Below, one piece after another: positions 1-13,076 of a stretch of DNA of 55,919 nucleotides. The translations under genes and the position numbers were made by a program. The notes below the pieces were generated by a model. It saw nothing but the letters and a program-made list of their open reading frames with translations. It ran no database searches and had not been told where the DNA came from. Source of the DNA: an uncultured virus (IMG/VR IMGVR_UViG_2061766007_004183) (Duplodnaviria > Heunggongvirae > Uroviricota > Caudoviricetes); IMG/VR virus record IMGVR_UViG_2061766007_004183. One strand, written 5' to 3'. Numbering within the stretch: the stretch's first letter is position 1; each line of letters opens with the position of its first letter.

Positions 1-4
1 GCCT

Positions 5-880
5 TTGCAGCACGATCATTTTACCCTCGGCCGCAGTTTCACCCCTGGACAGATGAAAGCCCTGCGCAAAGGAAATGTCCCCCAGGAGATGGAGGACAAG
101 TGGTTCTGGTACATGGAGGGCGATACGCTGTTTGCCCATCGGAGCTGGACCGGATACTGCATCTACAGGATCGACTTTTCACCGGACAATCATCATAAAG
201 TGACCGTCAATCGCGATCCCGAGCAGTATACATGCACCAGCACTGATGAGGATAGGGATCAGCTGAACAAACTCCTCGACTGGTGGACCAAGGACTCATA
301 CGATTATTATCATGAATGGCTGTCCGAGACAGTAGATTCTTTGAAAAAAGCAGGTATGATCAAGGACCAACTGAATGTCGCCGGTCAGGAAGTTGATGCG
401 ATCTTCTTCCACAAACCGTCTGAACCTCACGGTTTCCTGAGTAACTGGCATCCTTCTCCCTTCGACCTCGACGGCGTCCATTTCACTTCCGCTGAACAAT
501 ACATCATGTTCAAGAAGTGCATGCTCTTCGGTGACGTGGCTTCTGCTAAGAAGGTTCTTGCAACAGAAGACACAGAGGAACAGCAAGCCATTGGCCAGAA
601 CGCAAAAGGCTACGTCGGCAAGGTGTGGGAAGGAATGCGTCAGCTTGTTGCCGTTCGCGGTCTGCTTGCGAAGTTCTCCCAGAACGAGGACTTGAAGCAG
701 ATGCTGCTGGATACCGGCGATGCCTGGCTAGTGGAGTGTGCGCACAGAGACATCATCTGGGCTTGCGGCATCCGTCTCAATGAGGATGAGCGTTTTGATT
801 CGAGCAAATGGCGCGGGAAAAACATCCTCGGCTTTGCTCTGATGGAAGTTCGATCAATTCTGCGTGGGGCTAAAGGCTGA
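5..880 (+). CDS. NADAR (YbiA-like) domain protein with an N-terminal EDKWF/HRSWTG domain; probably 5'-truncated
   Basis: C-half has NADAR motifs FLSNWHPSPF, SAEQYIMFKK, AKFSQN..L..MLL.TG, LVE....D.IW..G, WRGKNILG.ALM.VR; frame is open to the window edge. Confidence 0.85.
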   Translation: MQHDHFTLGRSFTPGQMKALRKGNVPQEMEDKWFWYMEGDTLFAHRSWTGYCIYRIDFSPDNHHKVTVNRDPEQYTCTSTDEDRDQLNKLLDWWTKDSYDYYHEWLSETVDSLKKAGMIKDQLNVAGQEVDAIFFHKPSEPHGFLSNWHPSPFDLDGVHFTSAEQYIMFKKCMLFGDVASAKKVLATEDTEEQQAIGQNAKGYVGKVWEGMRQLVAVRGLLAKFSQNEDLKQMLLDTGDAWLVECAHRDIIWACGIRLNEDERFDSSKWRGKNILGFALMEVRSILRGAKG

Positions 881-955
881 CTCTGCGCACCAGCCTTGAA
901 AGGCAACTCGAAACATTATCTGCTCAGGAGAAGCGATAATTTCAGGTAAAGATTT

Positions 956-1717
956 ATGACTAGGAAAAAAGCTCGCTATGGCGATTACAAGAAGCGGCAG
1001 AAGATCCGAACAATTGTAATCGCTGTGATTTGTACTATCGCGATTATTTCTCTCCCGCGGATAATCAGCGCTTTGCGGACCCTTCAAACGCCTAAACCTT
1101 CTGTCCTGGGAACAGGTTCATATTCCGCAACAGACTTCAGTATTCCGCAATACTCCGGGTCAGCTTATGTAGAGATCAATGATAATATTCCCTTTTTCCA
1201 GGAGTCAGATATCACGACTACGGCATATGAAGAATACTGCCCTTTAGACAGACTTGGAAGATGCGGTCCTGCCATAGCCTGCCTCGGGCGTGAACTGATG
1301 CCAACTGAAGAGCGCGGGGAAATCGGCATGATAAGGCCTTCGGGGTGGCACACGGTAAGATATGACGATCTTATCGAGGACAAGTATCTCTATAACCGCT
1401 GCCACCTGATCGCCTATATGCTGGCGGGAGAGAATGACAACGAGCTAAATCTGATCACCGGGACAAGATATATGAATACTGGAGGTATGCTCCCCTTTGA
1501 GATAGAGATCGCAGACTATATCCTGGCGACCGGAAATCATGTGCTTTACAGGGTGTCCCCCTACTACTTTGAAAACGATCTGGTCGCAACTGGGGTGCTT
1601 ATGGAAGCATATTCCGTCGAGGACAACGGTCGGGGGCTGACCTTTAACGTATTTGTCTTTAATGTCCAGCCAGGGATCGTTATCGATTATAAGACCGGAA
1701 ACAGCAGTCGCCGATAA
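956..1717 (+). CDS. Membrane-anchored DNA/RNA non-specific endonuclease (DNA-entry nuclease family)
   Basis: N-terminal TM segment; LDRLGRCG, RPSGW, YNRCHLIAY, NLITGT..MN motifs. Confidence 0.9.
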   Translation: MTRKKARYGDYKKRQKIRTIVIAVICTIAIISLPRIISALRTLQTPKPSVLGTGSYSATDFSIPQYSGSAYVEINDNIPFFQESDITTTAYEEYCPLDRLGRCGPAIACLGRELMPTEERGEIGMIRPSGWHTVRYDDLIEDKYLYNRCHLIAYMLAGENDNELNLITGTRYMNTGGMLPFEIEIADYILATGNHVLYRVSPYYFENDLVATGVLMEAYSVEDNGRGLTFNVFVFNVQPGIVIDYKTGNSSRR

Positions 1718-1768
1718 TCTGCAGGTATTCGTATTTCTTATTATGTCTAGCGCAAGAGAGGTGTCAAA

Positions 1769-3211
1769 ATGGCGAGAAAGCGAATCGAAAACCCGAAAGT
1801 GTTCCTTTCATACGCATGGGGTGAAAAAGAGTACCAAAACATGGTCCTTGCATTTGCCACTCAACTAGTTCGTGATGGAATTGATGTTGTCTTCGATAAA
1901 TGGGATTTGGCTGAAGGAAATGACACAAATGCATTCATGGAAAAGTGCGTAAACGACCCAACTATCACAAATGTGCTGATGCTCCTCGACCCGCTGTATG
2001 CGACTAAAGCAAATGAGCACGCTGGCGGAGTTGGCACTGAGACGCAAATCATATCTGCCAAAGTCTATAGCGAAGTAGAGCAATCCAAGTTTATCCCTGT
2101 GGTGATGAAACGTGATCCTGAAGGAAACGTTTGCAAACCCACTTATCTCCAAACGAGATTGCACTTCGATTTGTCCATTCCTGAACGATATGATGAAGAG
2201 TATAAGAGACTTGTCAAAACACTATATGGCGAAGAAGTGTATCCAAAGCCCGAGTTGGGAAATAAGCCTTCTTGGGTAGAAAAACCAATTGCTGTCAAGC
2301 ACAGAGAATTAGTGACCTATGATACCATAAGAGGCGTCCAACCTAATGCGGTAAAGAGAGGTGCCTTTATTACGTACTTAAAGGAAATCTCTAACGATCT
2401 CATTACGTTTTGTGGTGGTGATATGTCAGGAATCTCCAACCCAAACGATTACATCTCCCAATATGATGAGACCGAGAGTATACGGACAAGGTTTCTGCAA
2501 TTACTGAAATACTCTGGCTATGTTGAGAATAGTCGACAGTTCGTTGCCGACTTTTTTGAGGAAACGGCCAATGGAATTACTCAGGCGAGTGGGAGAGTAG
2601 AACTCGCAAGGATAAGACTCCACGAGTTACTCATATATGTAATCGCATTCTTTCTCAGAGGTAAGGACTATTCTTCCATAGGGTATATCCTTGGAAAAAC
2701 GTATTACAATTGTCGCCGTTCCAACAGCCGTTCATTGGACAGCTTTAAAATGTTCTATAGCGGAAGCGATCATGAAAAGCTTGATATAGCCGTTCGGAAG
2801 CGAGACAACAAGAGATATATCACCGGCACAGGACAGCATTGGTTGGAAACACTGGCAACGGACCTATGTTCAAAAGAGCAATTCATTTTGGCAGATATTA
2901 TTTGTTTCAATTACTCCGTCTACGGAGCCGCTTTCGATGAAACCGGAATATGGTTCCCTATTACTTATATATTTGATTCTGAGTATAATAGTGTTATGGG
3001 TGCTTTCAGCAAAAAGCTCATTTCACGTGAGTATGCACAAGAACTACTTCCTCTGTTTGGATATAAGACTGTGGATGAACTGAAGGCTAAAATGAAATCA
3101 GTAGAAGACAGTCAAAGCGAACGCAGAGAAACAAGGTATTCCGACGCTTTTGAAAGCGCTCCTTTATTATGTGATTTCATTAAGGCTGGAGACGTTGGGA
3201 TTCGTCGATAA
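1769..3211 (+). CDS. SEFIR/TIR-domain protein, candidate anti-phage NADase
   Basis: N-terminus PKVFLSYAW...L..DGIDVVFDKWDL.EG.D...FME, GGVGTE, KFIPVV. Confidence 0.8.
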   Translation: MARKRIENPKVFLSYAWGEKEYQNMVLAFATQLVRDGIDVVFDKWDLAEGNDTNAFMEKCVNDPTITNVLMLLDPLYATKANEHAGGVGTETQIISAKVYSEVEQSKFIPVVMKRDPEGNVCKPTYLQTRLHFDLSIPERYDEEYKRLVKTLYGEEVYPKPELGNKPSWVEKPIAVKHRELVTYDTIRGVQPNAVKRGAFITYLKEISNDLITFCGGDMSGISNPNDYISQYDETESIRTRFLQLLKYSGYVENSRQFVADFFEETANGITQASGRVELARIRLHELLIYVIAFFLRGKDYSSIGYILGKTYYNCRRSNSRSLDSFKMFYSGSDHEKLDIAVRKRDNKRYITGTGQHWLETLATDLCSKEQFILADIICFNYSVYGAAFDETGIWFPITYIFDSEYNSVMGAFSKKLISREYAQELLPLFGYKTVDELKAKMKSVEDSQSERRETRYSDAFESAPLLCDFIKAGDVGIRR

Positions 3212-3446
3212 GATACAACCCTATCGCTCTCACAGAAATAGCCTGTGAATACAAAGTGAAGATATTTAAGAAGAGAGTAGCCCATTCATCATGTCTCAAA
3301 AAGTGGTTCAGACTTTTGAGACGGGAAATCCCTGGGTTTTTGCGGCAGAATCTAGTCTCTCAAAAAGTATACCTTTTGATACGCACCTTAGGGTATGATA
3401 CCGTCAGCCATTTTTTCTGCGAGAACTGCATAAGGAGGTTTCGTCC

Positions 3447-5216
3447 ATGGCAGATGGCGACAAGACCGGGAAGAAGATCCCAAAATCAGTCATATTCAAG
3501 CATTTTCTTTCACTGCCCGAGGAGCAGCGGGTCAAGCTGCTGCAGTCGCACATATCCCCTCGGCTCAAGAACGAGTTGGCGGAGAGCGAATTCAGTTTAA
3601 CGCTTAACGCCCTCAAGAAAAAGCCGGAGCCTGAGATCCGCGCGTATCTGACTAATGACAAAAACTTCGGCGGCCCCTGGCAGGACCTGATCCCTTACGG
3701 AGAAAGGCTGGCCGGCGATTACATGGACGATATCTACTCCCGATACGGCGGCACAAAGCGGATCAGCGATGAGGACAGGCTTTACGCGCTGGTCACGGAT
3801 AAAACGACCATGCCCAACCGTTTGGGGATTTTCTGGGGCGGCGTGAAGGGGGAGGTCAGGAAGGCCTACGAAAAGAAGTCTCTCGGGACCTTGAAGGATA
3901 TGAAGGCCATGGCGGTTTTCCTGGAGGATTCCAGGAATTATGCGCCGGGAAAAACCCAGGAGGACTTCCTGGAAGCAGTGAAGGAGACCATGGATCTCTC
4001 TAAAGAGAAGTCCATGATGGAACATATCCGGGAAGGTGCGCCGGAGGGCGATCCGGACCGAGGGGAGAAGATCCAGCGTGCCGCGCAGCTGTTCATGATC
4101 CAGCCGGAAAGCCGGGTCGATCATGAAGACCTGGTCAAAAAACTTCAGGGAAAAGGCTGGAAAAAGACTATCGATCCGAAGAAAGCGTTGGAGGCCGCCC
4201 ATCAAGGCGGATGGGTCAAGATAGAGGAGGTCATCCCGCGTATCCAATCTGCGATGGAGATCCCCGAGACAGAAGAAGAAAAGGCCCTTTTCAAGGAGGC
4301 GGCGATCCAGTCCGCGAAGGATATCTTCATGTCCTTCGGTGAGGGAACAAGGGAGAGCGCGGAAGGACAAGAGATCCTGAACTACGCCAAGAGACTGCAG
4401 GAGGAACTGTCGGCGTCGTACCTGAAGCAGCAAGAAGTGCAGGAGCTCCGGGAGAGCCTTGCCGGGGAGATCCGCACCCTGGAAAAGGAAAAGAGCGGCT
4501 GGTTCCTCAGCAAGACTAATACGAAGGAATACGACGACATGATGAAGGGCGTTCGCCTCTTCAACGCCAAGCTGGACATGATGAACGGGCAGCAGCCGGC
4601 GGGCCTTTCGGAGGGAGAACTGAAGACCGTACGGGAGGCCGACGCGGAGACGCTTCTCGCAAACGCGAAGACCGGCGTCTACAACTACGGCTGCCTGAAG
4701 ACTACGAACGGCAGAAAGGGCTTCGTTCACGACGCCGGCGAGGAACGCTTCGACTCCTCCATGAAGACGCTGGCGGGGCTGAACGAGCTGGGAAAAAAGC
4801 TCCATCTGGGCGATCCCGCAGCCGCGGTCCGGGACGAAGCTCAGCAGAAACTGCTGCAGAACCGCCGGGATAAGAACTGGATAAAGGAGAACGCTACGGA
4901 TCTGGCCGCGCAGACCATCTGCGCCCAGGCCATGCTGGGCAAAGGCATGCCGGCCTATCAGCAGCGCGCCATGCTGGAGGGCGACGCCTTCCGGAAACAG
5001 GTCGAAAAGATCAAGGCCGACGAGTCCTTCCAGCACATGATGAAGAAGGTGGGAGAGGAAGGCGTCGCCGACGCCATGATCAAGGGCGTCTCGGGCCTTG
5101 CCGAGGTCTATATGAAGTCGAGAAACGCCGTCCGCGGGGAGAATGCCGCCGAGATCAGCGAGAAGGATCTGACCCCCGTGGCCGAGACGCAGGGTCTCAC
5201 CTCTCCTGTCCGATAA
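3447..5216 (+). CDS. Hypothetical alpha-helical protein (589 aa), GC-rich
   Basis: AAGGAGG RBS before ATG; long ORF with strong GC3 bias. Confidence 0.75.
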   Translation: MADGDKTGKKIPKSVIFKHFLSLPEEQRVKLLQSHISPRLKNELAESEFSLTLNALKKKPEPEIRAYLTNDKNFGGPWQDLIPYGERLAGDYMDDIYSRYGGTKRISDEDRLYALVTDKTTMPNRLGIFWGGVKGEVRKAYEKKSLGTLKDMKAMAVFLEDSRNYAPGKTQEDFLEAVKETMDLSKEKSMMEHIREGAPEGDPDRGEKIQRAAQLFMIQPESRVDHEDLVKKLQGKGWKKTIDPKKALEAAHQGGWVKIEEVIPRIQSAMEIPETEEEKALFKEAAIQSAKDIFMSFGEGTRESAEGQEILNYAKRLQEELSASYLKQQEVQELRESLAGEIRTLEKEKSGWFLSKTNTKEYDDMMKGVRLFNAKLDMMNGQQPAGLSEGELKTVREADAETLLANAKTGVYNYGCLKTTNGRKGFVHDAGEERFDSSMKTLAGLNELGKKLHLGDPAAAVRDEAQQKLLQNRRDKNWIKENATDLAAQTICAQAMLGKGMPAYQQRAMLEGDAFRKQVEKIKADESFQHMMKKVGEEGVADAMIKGVSGLAEVYMKSRNAVRGENAAEISEKDLTPVAETQGLTSPVR

Positions 5217-6664: not shown

Positions 6665-7429
6665 GTGACAGACGTGCGGAATATAATCATTGAAAACCTG
6701 AAAAGAATCGAAGAATCTGAAAACGTACGTATTCTTATGGCCGTAGAATCTGGCAGCAGAGCATGGGGCTTCGCGTCTCCGGACAGCGATTATGACGTCC
6801 GTTTTATCTATGCTCGCCCTGCCGAAGAGTATCTGCGTCTTGACGAGCAGAGGGACGTGATCGAACTGCCTATCAACGATATGCTGGATATCAACGGCTG
6901 GGATATCAATAAGACCCTCCGGCTTCTCTATCGCTCAAACCCGACTCTGTGTGAATGGGCGTCTTCCCCGATTATCTATATGGATAATGGCTTCCTGGAA
7001 GTGATCAGGCCTCTTCTGCCAAAGTATTTCCATTCGAAGAAAGGGCTCTATCACTACCTCAGCATGGCCAAGTCCAATTATCGGGAATTCCTGAAGGGCG
7101 ATGTAGTCAAAACCAAAAAGTATTTCTATGTCCTTCGTCCGATCCTTGCGTGCAAATGGATCCTAGACAAACACAGTCCGCCGCCCATGCCGTTTGAAGA
7201 ACTGGTTGCAGCCGAACTGGATCCGACTTTGAAGCCAGAAATCGACCGGCTCCTGGACATCAAAATGAATGCTCCGGAATTGAAGCTCATACCGCGAATC
7301 GACGCGCTCAACCGCTTTCTAGACGATAGTATTGAAACCGTTGAGCAGGCTCTGGAACAAGCGCCGGATGAAGAGAGAAACAACTGGAGCGAGCTCAACA
7401 GACTATTCCTGGAGATCATCAAGAACTGA
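6665..7429 (+). CDS. Nucleotidyltransferase (YcgL/RlaP-like, Pol-beta superfamily)
   Basis: AVESGSRAWGFASPDSDYDVRFIY, DINGWD, SNPTL.EW, KKYFYVLRP. Confidence 0.9.
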   Translation: MTDVRNIIIENLKRIEESENVRILMAVESGSRAWGFASPDSDYDVRFIYARPAEEYLRLDEQRDVIELPINDMLDINGWDINKTLRLLYRSNPTLCEWASSPIIYMDNGFLEVIRPLLPKYFHSKKGLYHYLSMAKSNYREFLKGDVVKTKKYFYVLRPILACKWILDKHSPPPMPFEELVAAELDPTLKPEIDRLLDIKMNAPELKLIPRIDALNRFLDDSIETVEQALEQAPDEERNNWSELNRLFLEIIKN

Positions 7430-7444
7430 GGGTTCAGCAAGACT

Positions 7445-8191
7445 ATGAGATACTATGTCACAGCCGACATACATGGCTTCTATACGCCGCTTTACAAAGC
7501 ACTGACCGAGGCGGGATTCTTTACGGATACTGAGCCGAATAAGCTCATCGTTCTCGGTGACCTCTTTGATCGCGGCGCGGATGCACTGAAGATGCAGGAA
7601 TTCACCTTAAGCCTGATGGAAGATAATCGGGTCATCCTGATCAAGGGCAATCATGAGGATCTGTTTGTAGACTTGGCCACTAAAGACCACGGGTTAGCAT
7701 ACAGCCATCATGTCTCCAACGGCACATACGATACTGCTCTGCAGTTGACTGGGTTCAGTACGTCTGCGGCCGGGAGAAGGCCTTATGGCTTTGCTGACGC
7801 AGCCAGAAGGACTCCGTTTTTCAAGCAGATCATTCCCTCAATGCTGGATTATTACGAGACGGAGCACTATGTTTTCGTGCATGGCTGGATTCCGTGTGTC
7901 TACGAAAATGGTGAATTCAGCTATATAACAGACTGGCGGAATGCCGGCAAGGACGAGTGGACAAGTGCGCGATGGTATAACGGCATGGAAGCTGCGCAGA
8001 CCTGCCTGGAAGAAAAGACAATCGTATGCGGCCACTGGCATACTTCATATGGGCATTTCATGTTTGAGCACAAAGGGTCTGAGTTTGGCCCGGATGCGGA
8101 TTTCTCGCCCTTCTACGGCAACAGGATCATCGCATTGGACGCATGCACAGCCTTGAGCAGACGGGTCAATGTTGTTGTACTTAAGGACTAG
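7445..8191 (+). CDS. Calcineurin-like metallophosphoesterase
   Basis: ADIHG, LGDLFDRG, KGNHE, FVHG, CGHWH motifs. Confidence 0.9.
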   Translation: MRYYVTADIHGFYTPLYKALTEAGFFTDTEPNKLIVLGDLFDRGADALKMQEFTLSLMEDNRVILIKGNHEDLFVDLATKDHGLAYSHHVSNGTYDTALQLTGFSTSAAGRRPYGFADAARRTPFFKQIIPSMLDYYETEHYVFVHGWIPCVYENGEFSYITDWRNAGKDEWTSARWYNGMEAAQTCLEEKTIVCGHWHTSYGHFMFEHKGSEFGPDADFSPFYGNRIIALDACTALSRRVNVVVLKD

Positions 8192-8528: not shown

Positions 8529-8903
8529 ATGGATAATATATCGGAAGATAAAACCTCTGGCAGGACAGACGGAAGTGCGTTTTTCATCTTCTCGCCGCGA
8601 AATGCGGACGAGTTCAGACGGCCGTTCCCGCTTGATAGTATTCAACCTTACCGAATCATCGAGACCATTACTCTGAACGGAATGGACTATGAAAACTTTG
8701 CGACCGACATGCTGGTCGAACGCGAATACTTAGAGCCGTTCGAAGGGTTGTGCTGCACCGGGGCCGTATATGAATGCGTTCTCGTTTGCCGGCAAGGGAA
8801 CAACAGAACGGGAATTCTCGTCATACCGGACAGCGGAGGATATATAAAATGCGCTGCCTATTACGATGATCGGGAGGTCAGTGAAGATGAAGTCCAAGTA
8901 TGA
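8529..8903 (+). CDS. Hypothetical protein
   Basis: ORF with YENFATDML motif; start uncertain. Confidence 0.55.
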   Translation: MDNISEDKTSGRTDGSAFFIFSPRNADEFRRPFPLDSIQPYRIIETITLNGMDYENFATDMLVEREYLEPFEGLCCTGAVYECVLVCRQGNNRTGILVIPDSGGYIKCAAYYDDREVSEDEVQV

Positions 8904-9147
8904 AGACTATTCTGTCGACGAACTGAGGAAAGCTTTCAAAACCCTCTTTGGCTCTATTGATCCTAATTGGGATTACAACGAAGACCCTCAGATAACCGAC
9001 GAGGAGATTGCTGAGCTCGAAGAGATCATAGCCATACTCCGTGTTAAAGATCCCCTTCCGCCACCGAAGCACACTGCCAAAGAGAGTTGGGCAATCTTTA
9101 AGGCAGAACACGCGGAGGAATTCGCCAAGCTGGGCCAGATCAGTTGA
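8887..9147 (+). CDS. Hypothetical small acidic protein
   Basis: GGAGG RBS; 86-aa ORF. Confidence 0.6.
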   Translation: MKSKYEDYSVDELRKAFKTLFGSIDPNWDYNEDPQITDEEIAELEEIIAILRVKDPLPPPKHTAKESWAIFKAEHAEEFAKLGQIS

Positions 9148-9168
9148 ACCCTTTATACCACAGGTATA

Positions 9169-9197
9169 TTTACAAGACAAAATCGGTGTGCTATAGT
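9169..9197 (+). promoter_or_regulatory. SigA-type promoter of the rtcB-tRNA operon
   Basis: TTTACA-17-TATAGT with extended TG. Confidence 0.7.
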
Positions 9198-9237
9198 AGC
9201 CGCAGAAATCGGGCTATGCCCAGAAAGGACACAAGAC

Positions 9238-9363
9238 ATGCTTTCGTTTGCTTTTGCTTTGTCATTAAAAGAGCAAGAACGGTTCCAGTCCAGCTATTAT
9301 TGCCTGGGCAATGTCAGTGTGCGCTCATATAAGGCAAAGTATAACGGCAGCATGATCAGATAA
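9238..9363 (+). CDS. 41-aa leader peptide MLSFAFALSLKEQERFQSSYYCLGNVSVRSYKAKYNGSMIR
   Basis: AAAGGA RBS; ATG 9238 to TAA 9363; overlaps the antiterminator strand; below the ORF-track size cut-off. Confidence 0.75.
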   Translation: MLSFAFALSLKEQERFQSSYYCLGNVSVRSYKAKYNGSMIR

Positions 9364-9425
9364 TCCCTTTCGGATAAGATCATAACCATCGGCCGCTTGC
9401 CTTGTATGAGGCAAGCGGCCTTTTT
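9324..9425 (+). promoter_or_regulatory. Transcription attenuator (terminator/antiterminator)
   Basis: Terminator GGCCGCTTGCCT-tgtatg-AGGCAAGCGGCC-TTTTT (9391-9425); CTCATATAAGGCAA (9324-9337) pairs over 14 bp with TTGCCTTGTATGAG (9397-9410). Confidence 0.8.
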
Positions 9426-9453
9426 CTGCCCACAAATGGAGGAGAACAGCAAA

Positions 9454-10653
9454 ATGCTTGAAGTCAAAGGAAAAGTGAATACCGCGATTTGCTACGCCAA
9501 GGTCATTGAGAACGAGGCAGTCGAGCAGATCCGGCGCATGTGCGACTACGGCTTCACGGAGGGCAGCCAAATCCGAATCATGCCCGACGTTCACGCCGGC
9601 GCGGGTTGCACGATAGGAACGACGATGACCGTTCTTGATAAGGCTGTTCCCAATGTAGTTGGTGTGGATATCGGTTGCGGCATGTATACCGTACGACTCG
9701 CGGAGCAGGAGATCGATTTTGAAAAGCTGGACGAAGCCGCGCACTTCATTCCCTCCGGCATGAACGTATGGGAAGGCCGCCAAGAACGCTTTGACCTGAC
9801 CGGACTTCGCAGTTACCGCGCCTTAAAAGACACACGACGTCTGGAAAGAAGCCTGGGCACCTTGGGCGGCGGCAACCATTTCATTGAAGTCGACACCGCA
9901 ACTGGCGGAACGAAATATCTTATCATCCACTCCGGCTCCCGCAACCTGGGCAAGCAGGTAGCAGAATACTATCAGCGTTTGGCCATTGATCTGAGCAAAG
10001 GAAAAGCGGAATACTTCGCGAAACGCGATGCTCTGATTGCGGAATACAAGGCTGCCGGACGAAGAGCTGAGATCCAGCAGGCACTGAAAGAACTGAAATG
10101 GAACTCCAAAGAGTCGGAGATACCTGAGGATCTGTGCTTCGTCTACGGTCAATACCTGGATGACTATCTTATCGATGTAGAAATCTGCCAGAGCTTTGCC
10201 CGCAGGAGCCGCGAACTGATGGCGGAGATCCTCCTGCAGCGTAGCGGACTGACGGCGTTGGATTCCTTCCACACCATTCATAATTACATCGACACGAAGG
10301 AAATGATCCTGCGCAAGGGTGCCATTGCCGCCCATGACGGTGAGAAAGTGCTGATTCCCATCAACATGCGCGACGGCAGCGTTTTGGCAGTCGGTAAGGG
10401 CAATCCCGAATGGAATTTCTCTGCACCCCACGGTGCGGGGAGGATCATGTCCAGGACCGCGGCAAAAGCGAATCTGGATATGGAAGAATACCGCAGGGAG
10501 ATGGCCGGCATCTTCACCACTTCCGTGAGCGAGGCCACCATCGACGAAGCGCCCATGGCCTACAAGTCCCTGGAGGATATTATCGGCGTGATCTCAGACA
10601 GTGTCGACGTGATCGAAGTACTGAAACCCATTTACAATTTCAAGGCTGGCTGA
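9454..10653 (+). CDS. rtcB: RtcB family RNA 3'-phosphate/5'-OH ligase
   Basis: MPDVHAG.G..IG, VGVDIGCG, GTLGGGNHFIE, IHSGSR, HNY, RKGA, SAPHGAGR, DEAPMAYK; GGAGGA RBS. Confidence 0.95.
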   Translation: MLEVKGKVNTAICYAKVIENEAVEQIRRMCDYGFTEGSQIRIMPDVHAGAGCTIGTTMTVLDKAVPNVVGVDIGCGMYTVRLAEQEIDFEKLDEAAHFIPSGMNVWEGRQERFDLTGLRSYRALKDTRRLERSLGTLGGGNHFIEVDTATGGTKYLIIHSGSRNLGKQVAEYYQRLAIDLSKGKAEYFAKRDALIAEYKAAGRRAEIQQALKELKWNSKESEIPEDLCFVYGQYLDDYLIDVEICQSFARRSRELMAEILLQRSGLTALDSFHTIHNYIDTKEMILRKGAIAAHDGEKVLIPINMRDGSVLAVGKGNPEWNFSAPHGAGRIMSRTAAKANLDMEEYRREMAGIFTTSVSEATIDEAPMAYKSLEDIIGVISDSVDVIEVLKPIYNFKAG

Positions 10654-10700
10654 GCCGGACTCCTGTTCCGGCTCAGGGCCGGAACAGGAGAGAAAAACAG

Positions 10701-10955
10701 ATGAATAACATGCCGGTCATAGACATGACCGCCACCGGGATGAATATCACCCGGCTCCGAATAAACGCAGGCCTCACCGTCCGCGATCTTCAGACAATAT
10801 TCGGTTTCAGCACCCCGCAGGCCATCTACAAGTGGCAGCGCGGTGATGCCATGCCCACTCTCGACAATATGCTGGTGCTTGCCGCTGTTTTCGGAGTGAC
10901 GATAGACGATATTCTTGTCGTTCAAAACCCTAACGCGATCCGTGTGATCGCATAA
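10701..10955 (+). CDS. XRE-family helix-turn-helix regulator
   Basis: I.RLR...GLTVRDLQ..FGFSTPQAIYKWQRG..MPTLDN..VLA..FGVTIDDIL. Confidence 0.9.
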   Translation: MNNMPVIDMTATGMNITRLRINAGLTVRDLQTIFGFSTPQAIYKWQRGDAMPTLDNMLVLAAVFGVTIDDILVVQNPNAIRVIA

Positions 10956-10986
10956 TAAATCCGCCCGGTTCTCCGGGCGGACACCT

Positions 10987-11063
10987 GGCCCCTTGGTCAA
11001 GCTGGATAAGACGTCGGCCTTTCAAGCCGGAAGCGCTGGGTTCGAGTCCCGCAGGGGTCACCA
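10987..11063 (+). tRNA. tRNA-Glu(TTC)
   Basis: Cloverleaf; anticodon arm TCGGC-CTTTCAA-GCCGG; encoded CCA. Confidence 0.9.
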
Positions 11064-11067
11064 ATAA

Positions 11068-11141
11068 ACCGGATTGGTGTAACGGCAGCACGCCTGGTTC
11101 TGACCCAGGAAGACGTGGTTCAAATCCGTGATCCGGTGCCA
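11068..11141 (+). tRNA. tRNA-Gln(CTG)
   Basis: CCTGG-TTCTGAC-CCAGG; GCCA end. Confidence 0.9.
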
Positions 11142-11144
11142 TAT

Positions 11145-11221
11145 GGTCCCTTAGTCAAGCTGGATAAGACGCCGGCCCCTCAAGCCGGAGGCGTAGGGTT
11201 CGAGTCCCACAGGGATCACCA
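11145..11221 (+). tRNA. tRNA-Glu(CTC), C33
   Basis: CCGGC-CCCTCAA-GCCGG; ACCA end. Confidence 0.88.
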
Positions 11222-11227
11222 TTATTC

Positions 11228-11313
11228 GCTTGCGTGGTGGAATTGGAATACACATCCGGCTTAAGTCCGGATGCCAGACCGGCTTAAGGGTTCAAGTCCC
11301 TTCGCAAGCACCA
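11228..11313 (+). tRNA. tRNA-Leu(TAA)
   Basis: TCCGG-CTTAAGT-CCGGA; long variable arm; ACCA. Confidence 0.9.
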
Positions 11314-11314
11314 T

Positions 11315-11402
11315 GCGCGAGTGGCGGAACAGGTATACGCACCGGCCTCAAGTACCGGAGCCCGGACTGGGCCTGTGAGTTCGAATCTCACCTCGTGCAC
11401 CA
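11315..11402 (+). tRNA. tRNA-Leu(CAA)
   Basis: CCGGC-CTCAAGT-ACCGG (C31-A39 mismatch); long variable arm; ACCA. Confidence 0.88.
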
Positions 11403-11405
11403 TGA

Positions 11406-11480
11406 TCCGGGTTGGTGTAACGGTCAGCACGATCAGCTTTGACCCGATGCGTTGAGGTTCGAATCCTCAACCCGGAGCCA
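11406..11480 (+). tRNA. tRNA-Gln(TTG)
   Basis: ATCAG-CTTTGAC-CCGAT (A30-C40 mismatch); GCCA. Confidence 0.85.
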
Positions 11481-11483
11481 TAT

Positions 11484-11557
11484 GGTCCCGTGGCCAAGAG
11501 GCAAGGCTGCGGATTGCAAATCCGTGATCGTCCGTTCGACTCGGACCGGGACCTCCA
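11484..11557 (+). tRNA. tRNA-Cys(GCA)
   Basis: GCGGA-TTGCAAA-TCCGT; U73 discriminator, TCCA. Confidence 0.9.
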
Positions 11558-11561
11558 TAAT

Positions 11562-11650
11562 GCAGGATGATTCCGGGCGGCCTCGGAACCGGTCTAGAAA
11601 ACCGTGGGCAACAGTGATGTTGTGGGGATCGACACCTCCGTCCTGCGCCA
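11562..11650 (+). tRNA. Non-canonical 8/4 tRNA-Sec-like 'allo-tRNA', anticodon AGA, Ser identity
   Basis: 8-bp acceptor GCAGGATG/CGTCCTGC, 6-7-bp D-stem with 4-nt loop, CGGT-CTAGAAA-ACCG, 6-bp variable stem, 4-bp T-stem GGGG-ATCGACA-CCTC, G73-CCA. Confidence 0.75.
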
Positions 11651-11659
11651 AAATAACAT

Positions 11660-11749
11660 GCTGCGATATCCTAATTTGGTAAGGAACCTCCCCGCTAAGG
11701 AGGCGGTGCTTCACGGCCCATGGGCGTTCGAATCGCTCTCGCAGCGCCA
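11660..11749 (+). tRNA. tRNA-Ser(GCT), C33
   Basis: CCTCC-CCGCTAA-GGAGG; long variable region; GCCA. Confidence 0.82.
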
Positions 11750-11753
11750 ATAT

Positions 11754-11839
11754 GCACAGGTGGTGGAATTGGAATACGCGCCAGGCTAAGGACCTGATCC
11801 CTCTGTGGATTGCGGGTTCGAGACCCGCCCTGTGCACCA
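11754..11839 (+). tRNA. tRNA-Leu(AAG), A34 anticodon
   Basis: CCAGG-CTAAGGA-CCTGA; long variable arm; ACCA. Confidence 0.85.
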
Positions 11840-11842
11840 TAT

Positions 11843-11918
11843 GCGCTTTTAGCTCAGTTGGTAGAGCAGCAGCCTTTTAAGCCGCAGGTCGTGGGTTCGA
11901 GCCCCGCAAAGCGCACCA
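11843..11918 (+). tRNA. tRNA-Lys(TTT)
   Basis: GCAGC-CTTTTAA-GCCGC (A29-C41 mismatch); ACCA. Confidence 0.88.
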
Positions 11919-11922
11919 CCAT

Positions 11923-11999
11923 GTCCGCGTAGCTCAGTCTGGCAGAGCATCGCTCCTATTTGGAGCGCCAAGTCACCGGTTCAAATCCGGCCGCGGACG
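11923..11999 (+). ncRNA. tRNA-like RNA or pseudo-tRNA (aberrant anticodon arm, no encoded CCA)
   Basis: Acceptor GTCCGCG/CGCGGAC, D-arm GCTC..GAGC and T-loop TTCAAAT present; anticodon arm CGCTC-CTATTTG-GAGCG; followed by GTACCG. Confidence 0.6.
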
Positions 12000-12005
12000 T
12001 ACCGT

Positions 12006-12081
12006 GGGATCTTAGCTCAGTTGGTAGAGCGGCAGGTTGAAGCCCTGCGCGTATCTGGTTCGAATCCGGAAGATCCCACCA
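12006..12081 (+). tRNA. tRNA-Phe(GAA), G37
   Basis: GCAGG-TTGAAGC-CCTGC; ACCA. Confidence 0.9.
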
Positions 12082-12085
12082 CAAT

Positions 12086-12171
12086 GCACAGATGGCGGAA
12101 TGGTATACGCTCCAGTTTCAGGAACTGGTGTCCTCCGGGATGTGCGAGTTCGAGTCTCGCTCTGTGCACCA
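12086..12171 (+). tRNA. tRNA-Leu(CAG)
   Basis: CCAGT-TTCAGGA-ACTGG; long variable arm; ACCA. Confidence 0.9.
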
Positions 12172-12176
12172 TATAT

Positions 12177-12261
12177 GGGGGAATAGCCAAGTGGCCAAAG
12201 GCGCCTGACTGTAAATCAGGTGGTTTATCCTTCAGTGGTTCAAATCCACTTTCCCCCACCA
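12177..12261 (+). tRNA. tRNA-Tyr(GTA)
   Basis: CCTGA-CTGTAAA-TCAGG; ACCA. Confidence 0.9.
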
Positions 12262-12342
12262 GAACTGAGTTGACTCACAAGCTTGACGGCCTGTGGGTCA
12301 CTTCGATATAATCTGTCTGTATCTTACTAAAAGGAGCACACC

Positions 12343-12603
12343 ATGACTGTATATCGAATTTTCGTCGCCGATATAGGCGAGTATAAAAACTCCACGAAGT
12401 ACAGGTTCATTGCAGATTTCTCAGATGCGAAAACCGCATCTGATTATGTCGGCTTCATGCGCGGAAAGAAACGGTATGCAAAGCAGGATATTATCGTCAA
12501 GGAAGTGACGGTCACGGAAATTGACACTGCTGCAGGAGCGGTAGTCGGCGTGATCAGTGTCCTCGGAGAATCACTTCCTATTGAAGAAATCGATTTTAAA
12601 TGA
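12343..12603 (+). CDS. Hypothetical protein
   Basis: AAGGAG RBS; TTGACG-18-TATAAT upstream. Confidence 0.65.
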   Translation: MTVYRIFVADIGEYKNSTKYRFIADFSDAKTASDYVGFMRGKKRYAKQDIIVKEVTVTEIDTAAGAVVGVISVLGESLPIEEIDFK

Positions 12604-12668
12604 TGAAGGTATCATCTGCCTGGGCCCATTTGGGAATATTCCTTATTACTATGATTTGAGGTGGTCGC

Positions 12669-13076
12669 ATGAAATACAACGATGAGATGGCCGGCTTAAT
12701 TGCAATAATGGAAGCTATCGTTGGGCAATTCTATCACAACGAGCAAAAACGGGGCGGTTTCTTTTTCCGGTATCCCGTTTCATTTATGAGAGACGGCACC
12801 AAATACGAATGTAGAGGAGGGCATATTCCTGATCTCACAATTGAGGAATTAAACTCCATGCATTACAAAACTGGTGCCAACTCACTTTATATCGGTGCGG
12901 CCTTGTTTCAAGTCCTTCAGTTTCTGGAGGAGCGGTATGCAGGAAAACTCGACTTTGCTGAGCTGGAAATGGAGTATCAGTTAAGCCAGATTAGAGCGCC
13001 ATTTTCACTTTTCGATTTATTCAATGACAATGGTGAGAGTGATGACGAAGACGAGGACTATGACAATGATGAATGA
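12669..13076 (+). CDS. Hypothetical protein with acidic tail
   Basis: GAGGTGG RBS; 135 aa. Confidence 0.65.
   Translation: MKYNDEMAGLIAIMEAIVGQFYHNEQKRGGFFFRYPVSFMRDGTKYECRGGHIPDLTIEELNSMHYKTGANSLYIGAALFQVLQFLEERYAGKLDFAELEMEYQLSQIRAPFSLFDLFNDNGESDDEDEDYDNDE

What the first reader, a model, noticed from the sequence alone, without database searches (positions are those of the whole stretch)
9169..12261. Leader-peptide 'codon checklist' attenuator controlling rtcB and a matching tRNA array: candidate tRNA-damage sensing and rescue system
Seen: promoter, 41-codon leader (9238-9363), terminator (9391-9425) with a 14-bp antiterminator (9324-9337), then rtcB, XRE and 15 tRNA-like genes, with no obvious internal terminator. 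Leader codons 2-23 are CTT TCG TTT GCT TTT GCT TTG TCA TTA AAA GAG CAA GAA CGG TTC CAG TCC AGC TAT TAT TGC CTG. Nineteen of these 22 encode the eight amino acids served by the array (L,S,F,K,E,Q,Y,C). The exact complement of 12 of the 14 CCA-bearing tRNAs' anticodons occurs, each once: all four Leu (CTT, TTG, TTA, CTG), both Glu, both Gln, AAA, TTC, AGC, TGC. Tyr(GTA) and Ser(AGA) are covered by wobble codons (TAT; TCC/TCA). The block ends at 9306, 17 nt before the antiterminator, about a ribosome footprint. Established: ribosome-stalling attenuation; RtcB ligates 2',3'-cyclic-P/5'-OH breaks made by anticodon nucleases; a stress-induced tRNA operon co-regulated with rtcB is known in Anabaena but is run by a protein repressor. 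Inference: loss of any of these host isoacceptors stalls the ribosome, frees the antiterminator and induces ligase plus replacement tRNAs. I know of no described attenuator that multiplexes isoacceptors this way.
Basis: partly seen in the sequence, partly recalled or inferred. Interest (0 to 1): 0.95.

Follow-up and report, generated by a model that had tools for sequence, protein, structure and literature searches.

The report
Leader codons track downstream tRNA genes
A small translated leader in front of an RNA-repair ligase gene and a bank of spare tRNA genes acts as a switchable stop signal, and across related gut bacteria its codons change in step with the tRNA genes that follow, which suggests a sensor that turns on repair and spare tRNAs when those tRNAs run short.

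Summary

The switch is not peculiar to this window. I found it in 107 of 354 rtcB loci from gut and rumen Clostridia (68 distinct leaders). It comes with a conserved dyad beside the -35 box, a strong Shine-Dalgarno sequence, and a reading frame that stays open while the peptide diverges. Antiterminator and terminator pairings show compensatory changes.

Thirty-seven of the 68 leaders have no tRNA gene behind them (4 of these are cut by a contig end). So the attenuator primarily controls rtcB-xre, and the tRNA arrays (1-28 genes) are variable cargo.

The predicted co-variation is nevertheless real. In 18 phylogenetically independent locus pairs, the leader segment before the antiterminator is enriched for the amino acids served only by its own array (15+/2-, Wilcoxon p 1e-4). 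The match is array-specific (permutation p 2e-4). It is absent from the leader tail, rtcB, xre and the other two reading frames.

The match is at amino-acid/codon-box level. An exact-anticodon preference is not supported family-wide. The tRNA-damage trigger is untested. This is a new variant of leader-peptide attenuation. Earlier notes of this scan proposed similar switches on other DNA, without this test.

The parts
9154..9168 (.). Inverted repeat TATACCACAGGTATA abutting the -35 box; candidate operator for the operon's own XRE protein
   Evidence: A degenerate form of this dyad lies 85-115 nt before the leader ATG in 51 of 68 distinct leaders, against 5 hits in 495,325 nt elsewhere in the same loci. 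Binding by XRE is inferred.
9169..9197 (+). Sigma-70-type promoter, TTTACA-17-TATAGT with TG extension
   Evidence: 10 of 12 matches. The same -35 / TGnTATAGT layout recurs in relatives (listing).
9211..9221 (+). Small 5' hairpin GGGC-TAT-GCCC directly before the Shine-Dalgarno sequence
   Evidence: Present in the MFE folds. G/C columns are conserved in alignment A1. Role unknown.
9223..9229 (+). Shine-Dalgarno sequence GAAAGGA of the leader ORF
   Evidence: GGAAAGGA is nearly invariant in A1. 61 of the 64 leader ORFs found from the dyad anchor have a purine-rich SD.
9238..9363 (+). Leader ORF, 41 codons plus stop
   Evidence: Anchoring on the dyad alone, 64 of 68 regions have an ATG ORF of at least 30 codons. 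Stop codons in the first 39 codons: 13 in frame 0 versus 138 and 221 in the other frames.
9241..9324 (+). Sensor segment of the leader (codons 2-29, before the antiterminator arm), carrying the codons that match the array
   Evidence: Covers 13 of 15 exact cognate codons. Co-variation with the arrays is confined to this segment and this frame.
9235..9274 (+). Region 1: 5' strand of the anti-antiterminator, pairing with 9323-9357
   Evidence: MFE of the transcript cut before region 3. In A1, 64% of cells are paired versus at most 47% in slid registers; the shuffle control is not significant. This is weaker support than for the other helices; across the family, region 2 pairs far upstream in only 20 of 68 folds.
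9324..9337 (+). Region 2: antiterminator 5' arm, inside the leader ORF
   Evidence: Pairs with 9397-9410. 95.6% of cells paired in 18 sequences; 2 pairs (4 cells) with compensatory change; slid registers at most 57%.
9391..9425 (+). Intrinsic terminator (stem 9391-9403 / 9408-9420, T-run 9421-9425). Its 5' arm and loop (9397-9410) form region 3.
   Evidence: 99.6% of cells paired, 3 pairs (8 cells) compensatory, 0 of 500 shuffles as high.
9454..10653 (+). rtcB, RNA 3'-phosphate/2',3'-cyclic-phosphate ligase family, 399 aa
   Evidence: Pfam PF01139, E 2.2e-55. Relatives of 72-87% identity in Clostridia.
10701..10955 (+). XRE-family HTH protein, 84 aa
   Evidence: Pfam HTH_3, E 1e-8. Follows rtcB in 59 of 68 distinct leader-bearing loci.
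10959..10982 (+). G+C-rich hairpin between xre and the first tRNA, with no T-run on the + strand
   Evidence: One search lists it as a terminator only for the - strand. Read. Function unknown (a processing site or weak pause is possible).
10987..12261 (+). tRNA array: Glu(TTC), Gln(CTG), Glu(CTC), Leu(TAA), Leu(CAA), Gln(TTG), Cys(GCA), Sec-like(AGA), Ser(GCT), Leu(AAG), Lys(TTT), Asn(ATT), Phe(GAA), Leu(CAG), Tyr(GTA)
   Evidence: ARAGORN and Rfam. Homologous arrays with tRNAs gained and lost occur in L173-175, L277 and L001/L172.
11561..11647 (+). tRNA-Sec-like gene (long acceptor, 6-bp D stem, long variable arm) with anticodon AGA instead of TCA
   Evidence: Rfam RF01852, 44.4 bits (gathering score 47), alignment. 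Not called by ARAGORN.

Best explanation
This is a ribosome-dependent transcription attenuator of the classical three-helix type. It sits in front of an rtcB-xre-tRNA operon on a mobile or defence-rich stretch of a rumen Clostridia genome.

Proposed sequence of events:
1. Transcription starts at the 9169-9197 promoter and a ribosome loads on the strong SD.
2. If the ribosome runs smoothly through the 41-codon leader, region 2 (9324-9337) is either covered by the ribosome or re-pairs with region 1. The terminator (9391-9425) forms and transcription stops.
3. If the ribosome stalls anywhere in codons 2 to about 25-29, region 2 is free to pair with 9397-9410. The terminator cannot form, and RNA polymerase reads into rtcB, xre and the tRNA genes.

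The sensor segment holds one or a few codons for every amino-acid family whose tRNA is encoded downstream, so a shortage of any of these tRNAs can switch the operon on. The induced spare tRNAs and the ligase then relieve the stall, which closes a feedback loop. The XRE protein probably binds the dyad beside the -35 box as a second, slower shut-off.

Shown by computation: the parts; the conservation and compensatory changes of helices 2:3 and 3:4; the conserved open frame; and the frame-specific, segment-specific co-variation of leader codons with array content.

Inferred: that the leader is translated; stall-dependent read-through; the nature of the trigger (tRNA cleavage, general translation stress or antibiotics); and XRE-operator binding.
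For: Anatomy.

Spread: the same architecture occurs in 107 of 354 rtcB loci, 68 distinct leaders.

Helices: antiterminator 95.6% paired with 4 compensatory cells; terminator 99.6% paired with 8 compensatory cells, 0 of 500 shuffles as high.

Open frame: 13 stops versus 138 and 221 in the other frames.

Operator-like dyad: 51 of 68 leaders.

Co-variation:
- 18 independent locus pairs on the RtcB tree give 15+/2-/1 tie at amino-acid level (sign p 0.0012, Wilcoxon 1e-4) and 16+/1- at codon level.
- Permuting arrays among pairs gives mean D 0.028 +/- 0.0145 against 0.0825 observed (p 2e-4; codon level p below 1e-5).
- Controls are flat: leader tail 6+/10-, whole rtcB 7+/8-, first 30 rtcB codons 5+/6-, xre 5+/8-, sensor DNA read in frame +1 7+/7- and in frame +2 7+/8-.

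Window's own clade:
- All 40 of 40 array amino-acid types occur in their own sensor.
- The true array-leader assignment is the best of 24 permutations, with p about 1e-4 against random clade leaders.
- L277 gained Trp, Met, Asn and His tRNAs and lacks Cys; its leader has W, M, N and H and no C. Its array-less sister L179 has R, V, S/D and L at the aligned positions.

Other observations:
- GAA is in 64 of 68 sensors, and Glu(TTC) is the commonest array tRNA (22 of 31 arrays) and the first one after xre (19 of 30).
- In one host genome the array tRNAs are extra, divergent copies, 70-85% identical to that genome's other tRNAs; 58 tRNA hits passed the cut-off.
Against: - 37 of 68 distinct leaders have no tRNA behind them (4 on cut contigs), yet their leaders are similarly diverse in amino acids. 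The leader therefore cannot be only a mirror of the array.
- One identical leader occurs with tRNA-Tyr (7 loci) and without it (15 loci).
- L299 has a His tRNA but no His codon in its leader. The large arrays L033/L055 are not matched better by their own leader than by other leaders.
- No family-wide preference for exact anticodon complements (114 of 269 versus 123.9 expected, z -1.34). Only a weak one for isoacceptor-readable synonymous codons (z 1.56).
- 21 of 40 amino-acid types absent from the four clade arrays are still present in the sensors.
- The anti-antiterminator is poorly supported outside the window's clade (20 of 68). A perfect antiterminator complement beats shuffles in only 27 of 68 leaders.
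- No transcript ends, ribosome footprints or reporter data exist. The RNA-library contigs over the tRNAs may be DNA carry-over.
- Leader finding and tRNA calls are heuristic (regex plus ARAGORN). Three sensor definitions were tried, and all were significant.
Confidence: 0.62

Rival explanations
1. A general translation-stress attenuator. Any ribosome slowdown in the leader (ribosome-targeting antibiotics, damaged rRNA or mRNA, global tRNA damage) induces rtcB. The tRNA arrays merely landed behind xre and profit from stress-inducible transcription. On this view the leader's codon make-up has no array-specific role, and the co-variation is a weak by-product.
For: - The attenuator occurs without tRNAs in 37 of 68 distinct leaders.
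- An identical leader occurs with and without tRNA-Tyr.
- Leaders everywhere are rich in different amino acids.
- No exact-anticodon preference.
- Precedents: the PA5471.1 leader before RtcB-like armZ responds to ribosome-targeting drugs and other ribosome defects (PMC12057347, passages read). The Anabaena trn operon and rtcB are induced by translation inhibitors (PMC8421152, passages read).
Against: Array-specific co-variation that is confined to the sensor segment and to the leader frame is not expected if codon identity is irrelevant. Permuted arrays explain only about a third of the effect (0.028 of 0.0825).
Confidence: 0.25
2. An amino-acid starvation attenuator. On this view the leader senses uncharged tRNA for several amino acids, as in trp/his/leu/ilv leaders, and the operon is a starvation response.
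For: It has the same three-helix layout as the classical amino-acid operon attenuators. The match to the arrays is at amino-acid level rather than anticodon level.
Against: The operon makes an RNA ligase, a repressor and tRNAs, and none of these supplies amino acids. There are no runs of one codon: each served amino acid appears one to five times among up to 13 different ones. tRNA genes do not relieve starvation.
Confidence: 0.05
3. The small ORF is not translated. On this view the leader RNA is a protein- or tRNA-binding riboregulator (T-box-like or bound by an antiterminator protein), or the terminator is simply a constitutive damper under XRE control.
For: There is no direct evidence of translation. 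The conserved dyad suggests that protein control exists anyway. RNA parts of the leader (region 2, terminator) are far more conserved than the peptide.
Against: The frame is kept open (13 stops versus 138 and 221) behind a conserved strong SD. Co-variation is seen only when the DNA is read in the leader frame. No Rfam family, T-box included, reaches threshold in 9198-9453.
Confidence: 0.05

Closest known systems
PA5471.1 leader peptide attenuator of armZ (PA5471, RtcB-like)-PA5470 in Pseudomonas aeruginosa
   Same: A short translated leader followed by terminators in front of an RtcB-family gene. Read-through occurs when ribosomes stall. A tRNA defect (cca mutant) increases stalling, and specific leader codons (3Q, 4F) matter (PMC12057347 passages; PMC13041342 abstract).
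   Different: It is in a different phylum, and no sequence relation was tested. ArmZ acts as an anti-repressor of an efflux pump. There are no tRNA genes and no XRE gene in that operon, and no reported match between leader codons and operon products.
Classical leader-peptide attenuators of amino-acid operons (trpL, hisL, leuL, thrL, ilvL, pheL; recalled textbook knowledge)
   Same: Region 1:2 / 2:3 / 3:4 alternative helices. The regulatory codons lie before region 2. The leader codons correspond to what the operon supplies.
   Different: Those leaders use runs of one or a few codons and sense tRNA charging. Here there are single or few codons for up to 12-20 amino-acid families, and the 'product' is the tRNAs themselves plus an RNA ligase.
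Anabaena sp. PCC 7120 trn operon (26 tRNAs) and rtcB under the TrcR repressor
   Same: A normally silent accessory tRNA array is co-regulated with rtcB and induced by translational stress. The array is horizontally mobile (PMC8421152, PMC10272220; passages read).
   Different: Control there is by a ribbon-helix-helix repressor binding direct repeats at the promoters. rtcB is at a separate locus. The words 'leader' and 'attenuat' have 0 occurrences in either paper. Here rtcB, an XRE-type HTH gene and the tRNAs form one operon behind an attenuator.
uORF/leader sensors of translation stress (ermBL/ermC, B. subtilis yxjB leader, E. coli toiL-topAI, mycobacterial whiB7 uORF)
   Same: Ribosome stalling in a short upstream ORF remodels the mRNA and switches on a downstream stress gene (search listings and abstracts only).
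   Different: Those respond to drug-bound ribosomes or to a single amino acid. None is reported to track tRNA genes of its own operon.

Membership tests
Leader-peptide (ribosome-mediated) transcription attenuator | Intrinsic terminator between the promoter and the first structural gene | tested here: met
   Stem 9391-9420 plus T-run. 99.6% of cells paired across 18 relatives with compensatory changes.
Leader-peptide (ribosome-mediated) transcription attenuator | Mutually exclusive antiterminator that uses the terminator's 5' arm | tested here: met
   9324-9337 pairs with 9397-9410. 95.6% paired, 2 compensatory pairs, slid registers at most 57%. Family-wide, a perfect complement beats shuffles in 27 of 68 leaders.
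Leader-peptide (ribosome-mediated) transcription attenuator | Anti-antiterminator (region 1) that sequesters region 2 when no ribosome stalls | tested here: inconclusive
   Present in the window's MFE. 64% paired in the clade versus at most 47% in slid registers, but the shuffle control is not significant. Seen in only 20 of 68 leaders by MFE.
Leader-peptide (ribosome-mediated) transcription attenuator | Short ORF with a ribosome-binding site that overlaps the switch and is conserved as an open frame | tested here: met
   64 of 68 dyad-anchored regions have an ORF of at least 30 codons, 61 with an SD. Stops: 13 versus 138 and 221 by frame.
Leader-peptide (ribosome-mediated) transcription attenuator | Regulatory codons that correspond to the operon's product | tested here: met
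   Frame-specific and segment-specific co-variation with array content. This holds at amino-acid/codon-box level only.
Leader-peptide (ribosome-mediated) transcription attenuator | Read-through depends on translation of the leader and on stalling | not testable with these tools
   Needs reporter fusions, Term-seq or Ribo-seq. Only contig-level RNA-library data were found.
RtcB RNA ligase family | Match to the family profile over the catalytic domain | tested here: met
   PF01139, E 2.2e-55, 189 bits against a cut-off of 27. Active-site residues were not inspected.
T-box riboswitch | Match to the T-box covariance model (specifier loop plus conserved T-box sequence) | tested here: not met
   No T-box hit at E up to 1 in 8800-12700. 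The only hit in the leader is a sub-threshold sRNA model (21.4 bits).
Long accessory tRNA arrays (L-arrays in the sense of PMC8421152) | Dense same-strand array of many tRNA genes added to a housekeeping set and spread horizontally | tested here: met
   15 genes in 1.27 kb. Homologous arrays sit patchily on the RtcB tree. In G289 the array copies are 70-85% identical to that genome's other tRNAs. The window's own genome was not available. Many family arrays are far shorter (1-9 genes).

The most novel reading that the evidence does not exclude
A modular 'sense, repair and replace' system for tRNA. On this reading the leader ORF is a multiplexed checklist that samples, one codon at a time, each tRNA family that a mobile element can replace from its own cassette. 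The leader is re-written by selection whenever a tRNA gene is gained or lost. Cleavage of any listed tRNA, for example by an anticodon nuclease of a competitor, phage-defence system or toxin, would then switch on the ligase and nuclease-insensitive spare tRNAs. Their supply, together with XRE, would switch the operon off again. It would be the first attenuator whose regulatory codons co-evolve with tRNA genes rather than with an amino-acid pathway.
Probability: 0.4. Interest if true: 0.95.

Novelty: new variant of a known kind. Interest (0 to 1): 0.85.

Why it matters
How bacteria without RtcR know when to make the RNA ligase RtcB, and how accessory tRNA arrays are kept silent until needed, are open questions. 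This locus family offers a simple, testable answer: a translated leader reads the state of the tRNA pool directly.

The co-variation gives a rare case in which the 'regulatory codons' of an attenuator can be predicted from the genes downstream, locus by locus. That allows clean swap experiments.

If the trigger is anticodon-nuclease damage, these operons would be a widespread counter-measure in gut and rumen Clostridia, with relevance for phage-defence and toxin biology. Some carriers are cultured, for example Fusicatenibacter saccharivorans (locus L040), so the idea can be taken to the bench.

Tried and rejected
- The whole genome of the window is not held. Codon usage therefore came from 35 window ORFs, and host-tRNA checks were done on a relative's genome (G289).
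- Rfam gave no known cis-regulatory family for the leader.
- Plasmid and phage collections gave only distant rtcB hits. Four were fetched, and one of them (L243) added an array-bearing locus.
- A viral-contig pattern scan for region 2 gave a single locus.
- Binary presence/absence contrasts with treekit were uninformative, because most amino acids are present in most leaders. Nearly all pairs were ties, and none went the opposite way in the part of the output that I saw. I replaced them with count-based contrasts.
- One search used a register two bases off, which was my slip. It was corrected.
- The SD / anti-SD pairing 9223-9228 with 9366-9371 seen in the window's fold is only 47.7% paired in the clade (helix 1), so I dropped it as a conserved feature.
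- Sequencing runs: the stretch is held by bovine gut metagenome runs. An RNA-library run (X19, contigs only) has two exact 151-nt contigs over 11635-11943. This cannot show a transcript, its ends or regulation, and the parts without cover say nothing.
- My first, stricter leader finder missed real leaders (L009, L010, L179, L278, L290, L291, L299, L331), which I then found by eye. L179, L278, L290 and L331 stayed outside the 68 used for statistics.
- No structure or complex prediction was run, because no claim here depends on one.

Full report
**1.

The window has a sigma-70-type promoter (TTTACA-17-TATAGT with a TG extension, 9169-9197) and one strong + strand terminator (stem 9391-9420, 13 pairs, then TTTTT). 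Between them lies a 41-codon ORF at 9238-9363, eight bases after GAAAGGA. Bases 9324-9337, inside that ORF, are complementary to 9397-9410 (the terminator's 5' arm and loop) over 14 positions with one G-U (register confirmed).

Downstream follow:
- rtcB, 9454-10653, Pfam E 2e-55;
- an 84-aa XRE-type HTH gene, 10701-10955;
- 14 tRNAs called by ARAGORN;
- a tRNA-Sec-like gene with anticodon AGA, 11561-11647, 44.4 bits against a gathering score of 47.

The consensus scan shows no convincing + strand promoter or terminator between 9426 and 12261.

Twelve exact anticodon complements occur once each in codons 2-23, and 13 of 15 occur in the whole leader. Against draws from the window's own codon usage, at least 12 of 15 in 22 codons occurred 11 times in 300,000. 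The less cherry-picked figure, at least 13 of 15 in 40 codons, occurred 514 times in 300,000. On its own that is suggestive, not decisive.

**2. The switch is a family trait of rtcB-xre operons in Clostridia.**

I collected rtcB loci as follows:
- genome, viral and metagenome collections, the best 80 of 482, 127 and 521 relatives;
- four phage or plasmid records;
- three samples of 401 genomes each, with wider flanks fetched.

This gave 354 loci in all. An SD, a 36-56-codon ORF, a region 2 complementary to the terminator's 5' arm, and a terminator were found in 107 loci, which is 68 distinct leader sequences. XRE follows rtcB in 59 of the 68.

A dyad like the window's TATACCACAGGTATA (9154-9168) sits next to the -35 box in 51 of 68 leaders. 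It has 5 hits in 495 kb elsewhere in the same loci.

Anchoring on that dyad alone, 64 of 68 regions carry an ATG ORF of at least 30 codons. Stop codons in the first 39 codons number 13 in the leader frame against 138 and 221 in the other two frames. The peptides themselves are very divergent.

In an alignment of 18 leaders of the window's clade:
- the antiterminator is 95.6% paired with 2 compensatory pairs, against at most 57% in slid registers;
- the terminator is 99.6% paired with 3 compensatory pairs, and 0 of 500 shuffles are as high;
- the anti-antiterminator (9235-9274 with 9323-9357) is register-specific (64% against at most 47%) but not better than shuffles.

Across all 68 leaders the anti-antiterminator shows up in only 20 MFE folds. 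A perfect antiterminator complement beats shuffles in 27 of 68. No Rfam family explains the leader.

**3. The tRNA arrays are variable cargo.**

Of the 68 distinct leaders, 31 are followed by 1-28 tRNA genes. These lie after xre, and in some loci also between the terminator and rtcB. The other 37 have none detected, 4 of them on contigs that end within 300 nt. One identical leader occurs with tRNA-Tyr in 7 loci and without it in 15.

Glu(TTC) is the commonest array tRNA (22 of 31 arrays) and the first one after xre (19 of 30). GAA is present in 64 of 68 sensor segments.

**4. Leader and array nevertheless co-vary, and this is the main result.**

*4a. The window's own clade.* The arrays are clearly homologous, with single tRNAs gained or lost:
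- window: E Q E L L Q C (Sec-like) S L K N F L Y;
- L173: E Q D E L L Q C S L K I H F L Y;
- L277: E Q W D E L L Q S L K N K L M H F Y;
- L001/L172: E I M Y L S L H K.

The leaders follow these differences:
- The window's sensor has no D, H, I, M or W.
- L173's sensor has D, H and I.
- L277's sensor has W, M, N, H and D but no C.
- L277's array-less sister L179 has R, V, S/D and L at the positions where L277 has W, M, N and H.

All 40 of 40 amino-acid types in the four complete arrays occur in their own sensor. Of the 40 types absent from the arrays, 21 are nevertheless present. The true pairing of arrays and leaders is the best of 24 permutations, and beats random clade leaders at p about 1e-4.

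*4b. The whole family, with relatedness controlled.* I built an RtcB DNA tree of the 68 leaders (IQ-TREE quick). I then took 18 locus pairs that differ in array content and whose connecting paths share no branch.

For each pair, D measures how much more the sensor (codon 2 up to region 2) uses the amino acids served only by its own array. D was positive in 15 pairs, negative in 2 and zero in 1 (sign p 0.0012, Wilcoxon 1e-4). With wobble-readable codon sets it was 16+/1-. Per-amino-acid contrasts gave +41/-22 with 29 ties (p 0.011), and +30/-10 for close pairs.

Swapping the array sets among pairs lowers mean D from 0.0825 to 0.028 +/- 0.0145 (p 2e-4; codon level p below 1e-5). So the match is to the locus's own array, not to arrays in general.

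Controls on the same pairs are flat:

| Region tested | + / - |
|---|---|
| Leader tail, from region 2 onward | 6 / 10 |
| Whole rtcB | 7 / 8 |
| First 30 rtcB codons | 5 / 6 |
| xre | 5 / 8 |
| Sensor DNA read in frame +1 | 7 / 7 |
| Sensor DNA read in frame +2 | 7 / 8 |

The signal therefore sits where a stalling model puts it, and it exists only in the leader's reading frame. That is also the best available evidence that the leader is decoded by ribosomes.

**5. Limits of the match.**

Given the amino acid, sensor codons are not significantly biased toward those the array's isoacceptors can read (91 of 143 against 83.1 expected, z 1.56). They are not biased at all toward the exact Watson-Crick complement (114 of 269 against 123.9).

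L299 has a His tRNA but no His codon. The 21-28-gene arrays of L033/L055 are not matched better by their own leader than by other leaders, although the L055 leader does contain all 20 amino acids.

The rule is 'at least one codon for every tRNA family in the cassette'.

**6. Most likely mechanism.**

This is classical attenuation logic:
- No ribosome, or a ribosome that runs through: region 2 is paired with region 1 or covered, the terminator forms, and transcription stops.
- A ribosome held up in codons 2 to about 25-29: region 2 pairs with 9397-9410, and polymerase reads into rtcB, xre and the tRNAs.

Because the sensor lists each tRNA family of the cassette, shortage of any of them can induce. 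The induced tRNAs and the ligase relieve the stall. XRE, probably acting at the dyad, adds repression.

In the one host genome I could examine (G289), the array tRNAs are additional and divergent copies, 70-85% identical to that genome's other tRNAs. Fifty-eight tRNA hits passed the cut-off. That fits a spare set.

What causes the shortage is not shown. RtcB as the first gene, RlaP and a metallophosphoesterase nearby, and the defence-rich surroundings (TIR/SEFIR, NADAR, endonuclease) all point to RNA damage. General translation stress is the main rival.

**7. Comparison with what is known.**

The closest experimentally studied case is the PA5471.1 leader before RtcB-like armZ in P. aeruginosa. 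It reads through when ribosomes stall, including in a cca mutant, and specific codons are involved (PMC12057347 passages; PMC13041342 abstract). That operon has no tRNA genes and no reported codon-product match.

The Anabaena trn operon and rtcB are co-induced by translational stress, but through the ribbon-helix-helix repressor TrcR at separate promoters. The words 'leader' and 'attenuat' do not occur in either paper.

Six full-text searches found no description of an attenuator before rtcB or a tRNA array in Clostridia, nor of leader codons tracking tRNA genes. That statement covers only the held library.

Earlier notes of this scan proposed leader attenuators before tRNA/RtcB arrays in marine phages, Hymenobacter and flavobacteria. 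I did not test those. One of them led me to the PA5471.1 literature.

**8. Verdict.**

This is a new variant of leader-peptide attenuation and deserves experimental follow-up.

Noticed in passing
window 11561-11647: A tRNA-Sec-like scaffold (long acceptor stem, 6-bp D stem with 4-nt loop, long variable arm) carrying anticodon AGA instead of TCA, with encoded CCA. It resembles the 'allo-tRNAs' described from Clostridia and metagenomes (recalled, not looked up). ARAGORN does not call it.
   Followed up: partly
window 11922-12000: tRNA-Asn with the unusual anticodon ATT. It is 79 nt long with the anticodon at position 37, and is the only array member without encoded CCA. The leader has AAT at codon 25. 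Leu(AAG), another A34 tRNA, recurs in 8 of 31 arrays.
   Followed up: no
window 6665-8191; L001 6276-7792: RlaP (RNA-repair-pathway nucleotidyltransferase, Pfam E 2e-93) and a calcineurin-like phosphoesterase lie upstream of the promoter in the window. In L001/L172 the same pair lies downstream of the tRNA array on the same strand. In several leader-less loci RlaP directly follows rtcB.
   Followed up: partly
window 2-5216: The neighbourhood is rich in conflict-type genes: a NADAR domain protein, a DNA/RNA non-specific endonuclease and a SEFIR/TIR protein. Further on there are an HTH-ImmA/IrrE pair, a Y-family polymerase and a YqaJ recombinase. This suggests a mobile element or defence island.
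   Followed up: no
window 10654-10700: Between rtcB and xre, two mutually exclusive hairpins share the segment CTCCTGTTCCGGC. Neither is followed by a T-run (read). Possibly a processing or translational-coupling element.
   Followed up: no
window 9247-9265 (run X5): A variant of this leader in another sample differs by a one-base insertion and a one-base deletion four bases apart, plus three substitutions. The reading frame is kept, and TTA and TTC codons are moved rather than lost.
   Followed up: no
L048/L309, L051/L331, L290/L291, L289, L293, L076: In some relatives 1-3 tRNA genes (often Lys(TTT), Ser, Leu) sit between the attenuator's terminator and rtcB, so rtcB itself is transcribed behind tRNAs.
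   Followed up: partly
L278 (G313): A clade member whose leader and both helices are intact has lost the T-run after the terminator stem (GGCCTTATCC). This may be a constitutively read-through variant.
   Followed up: no
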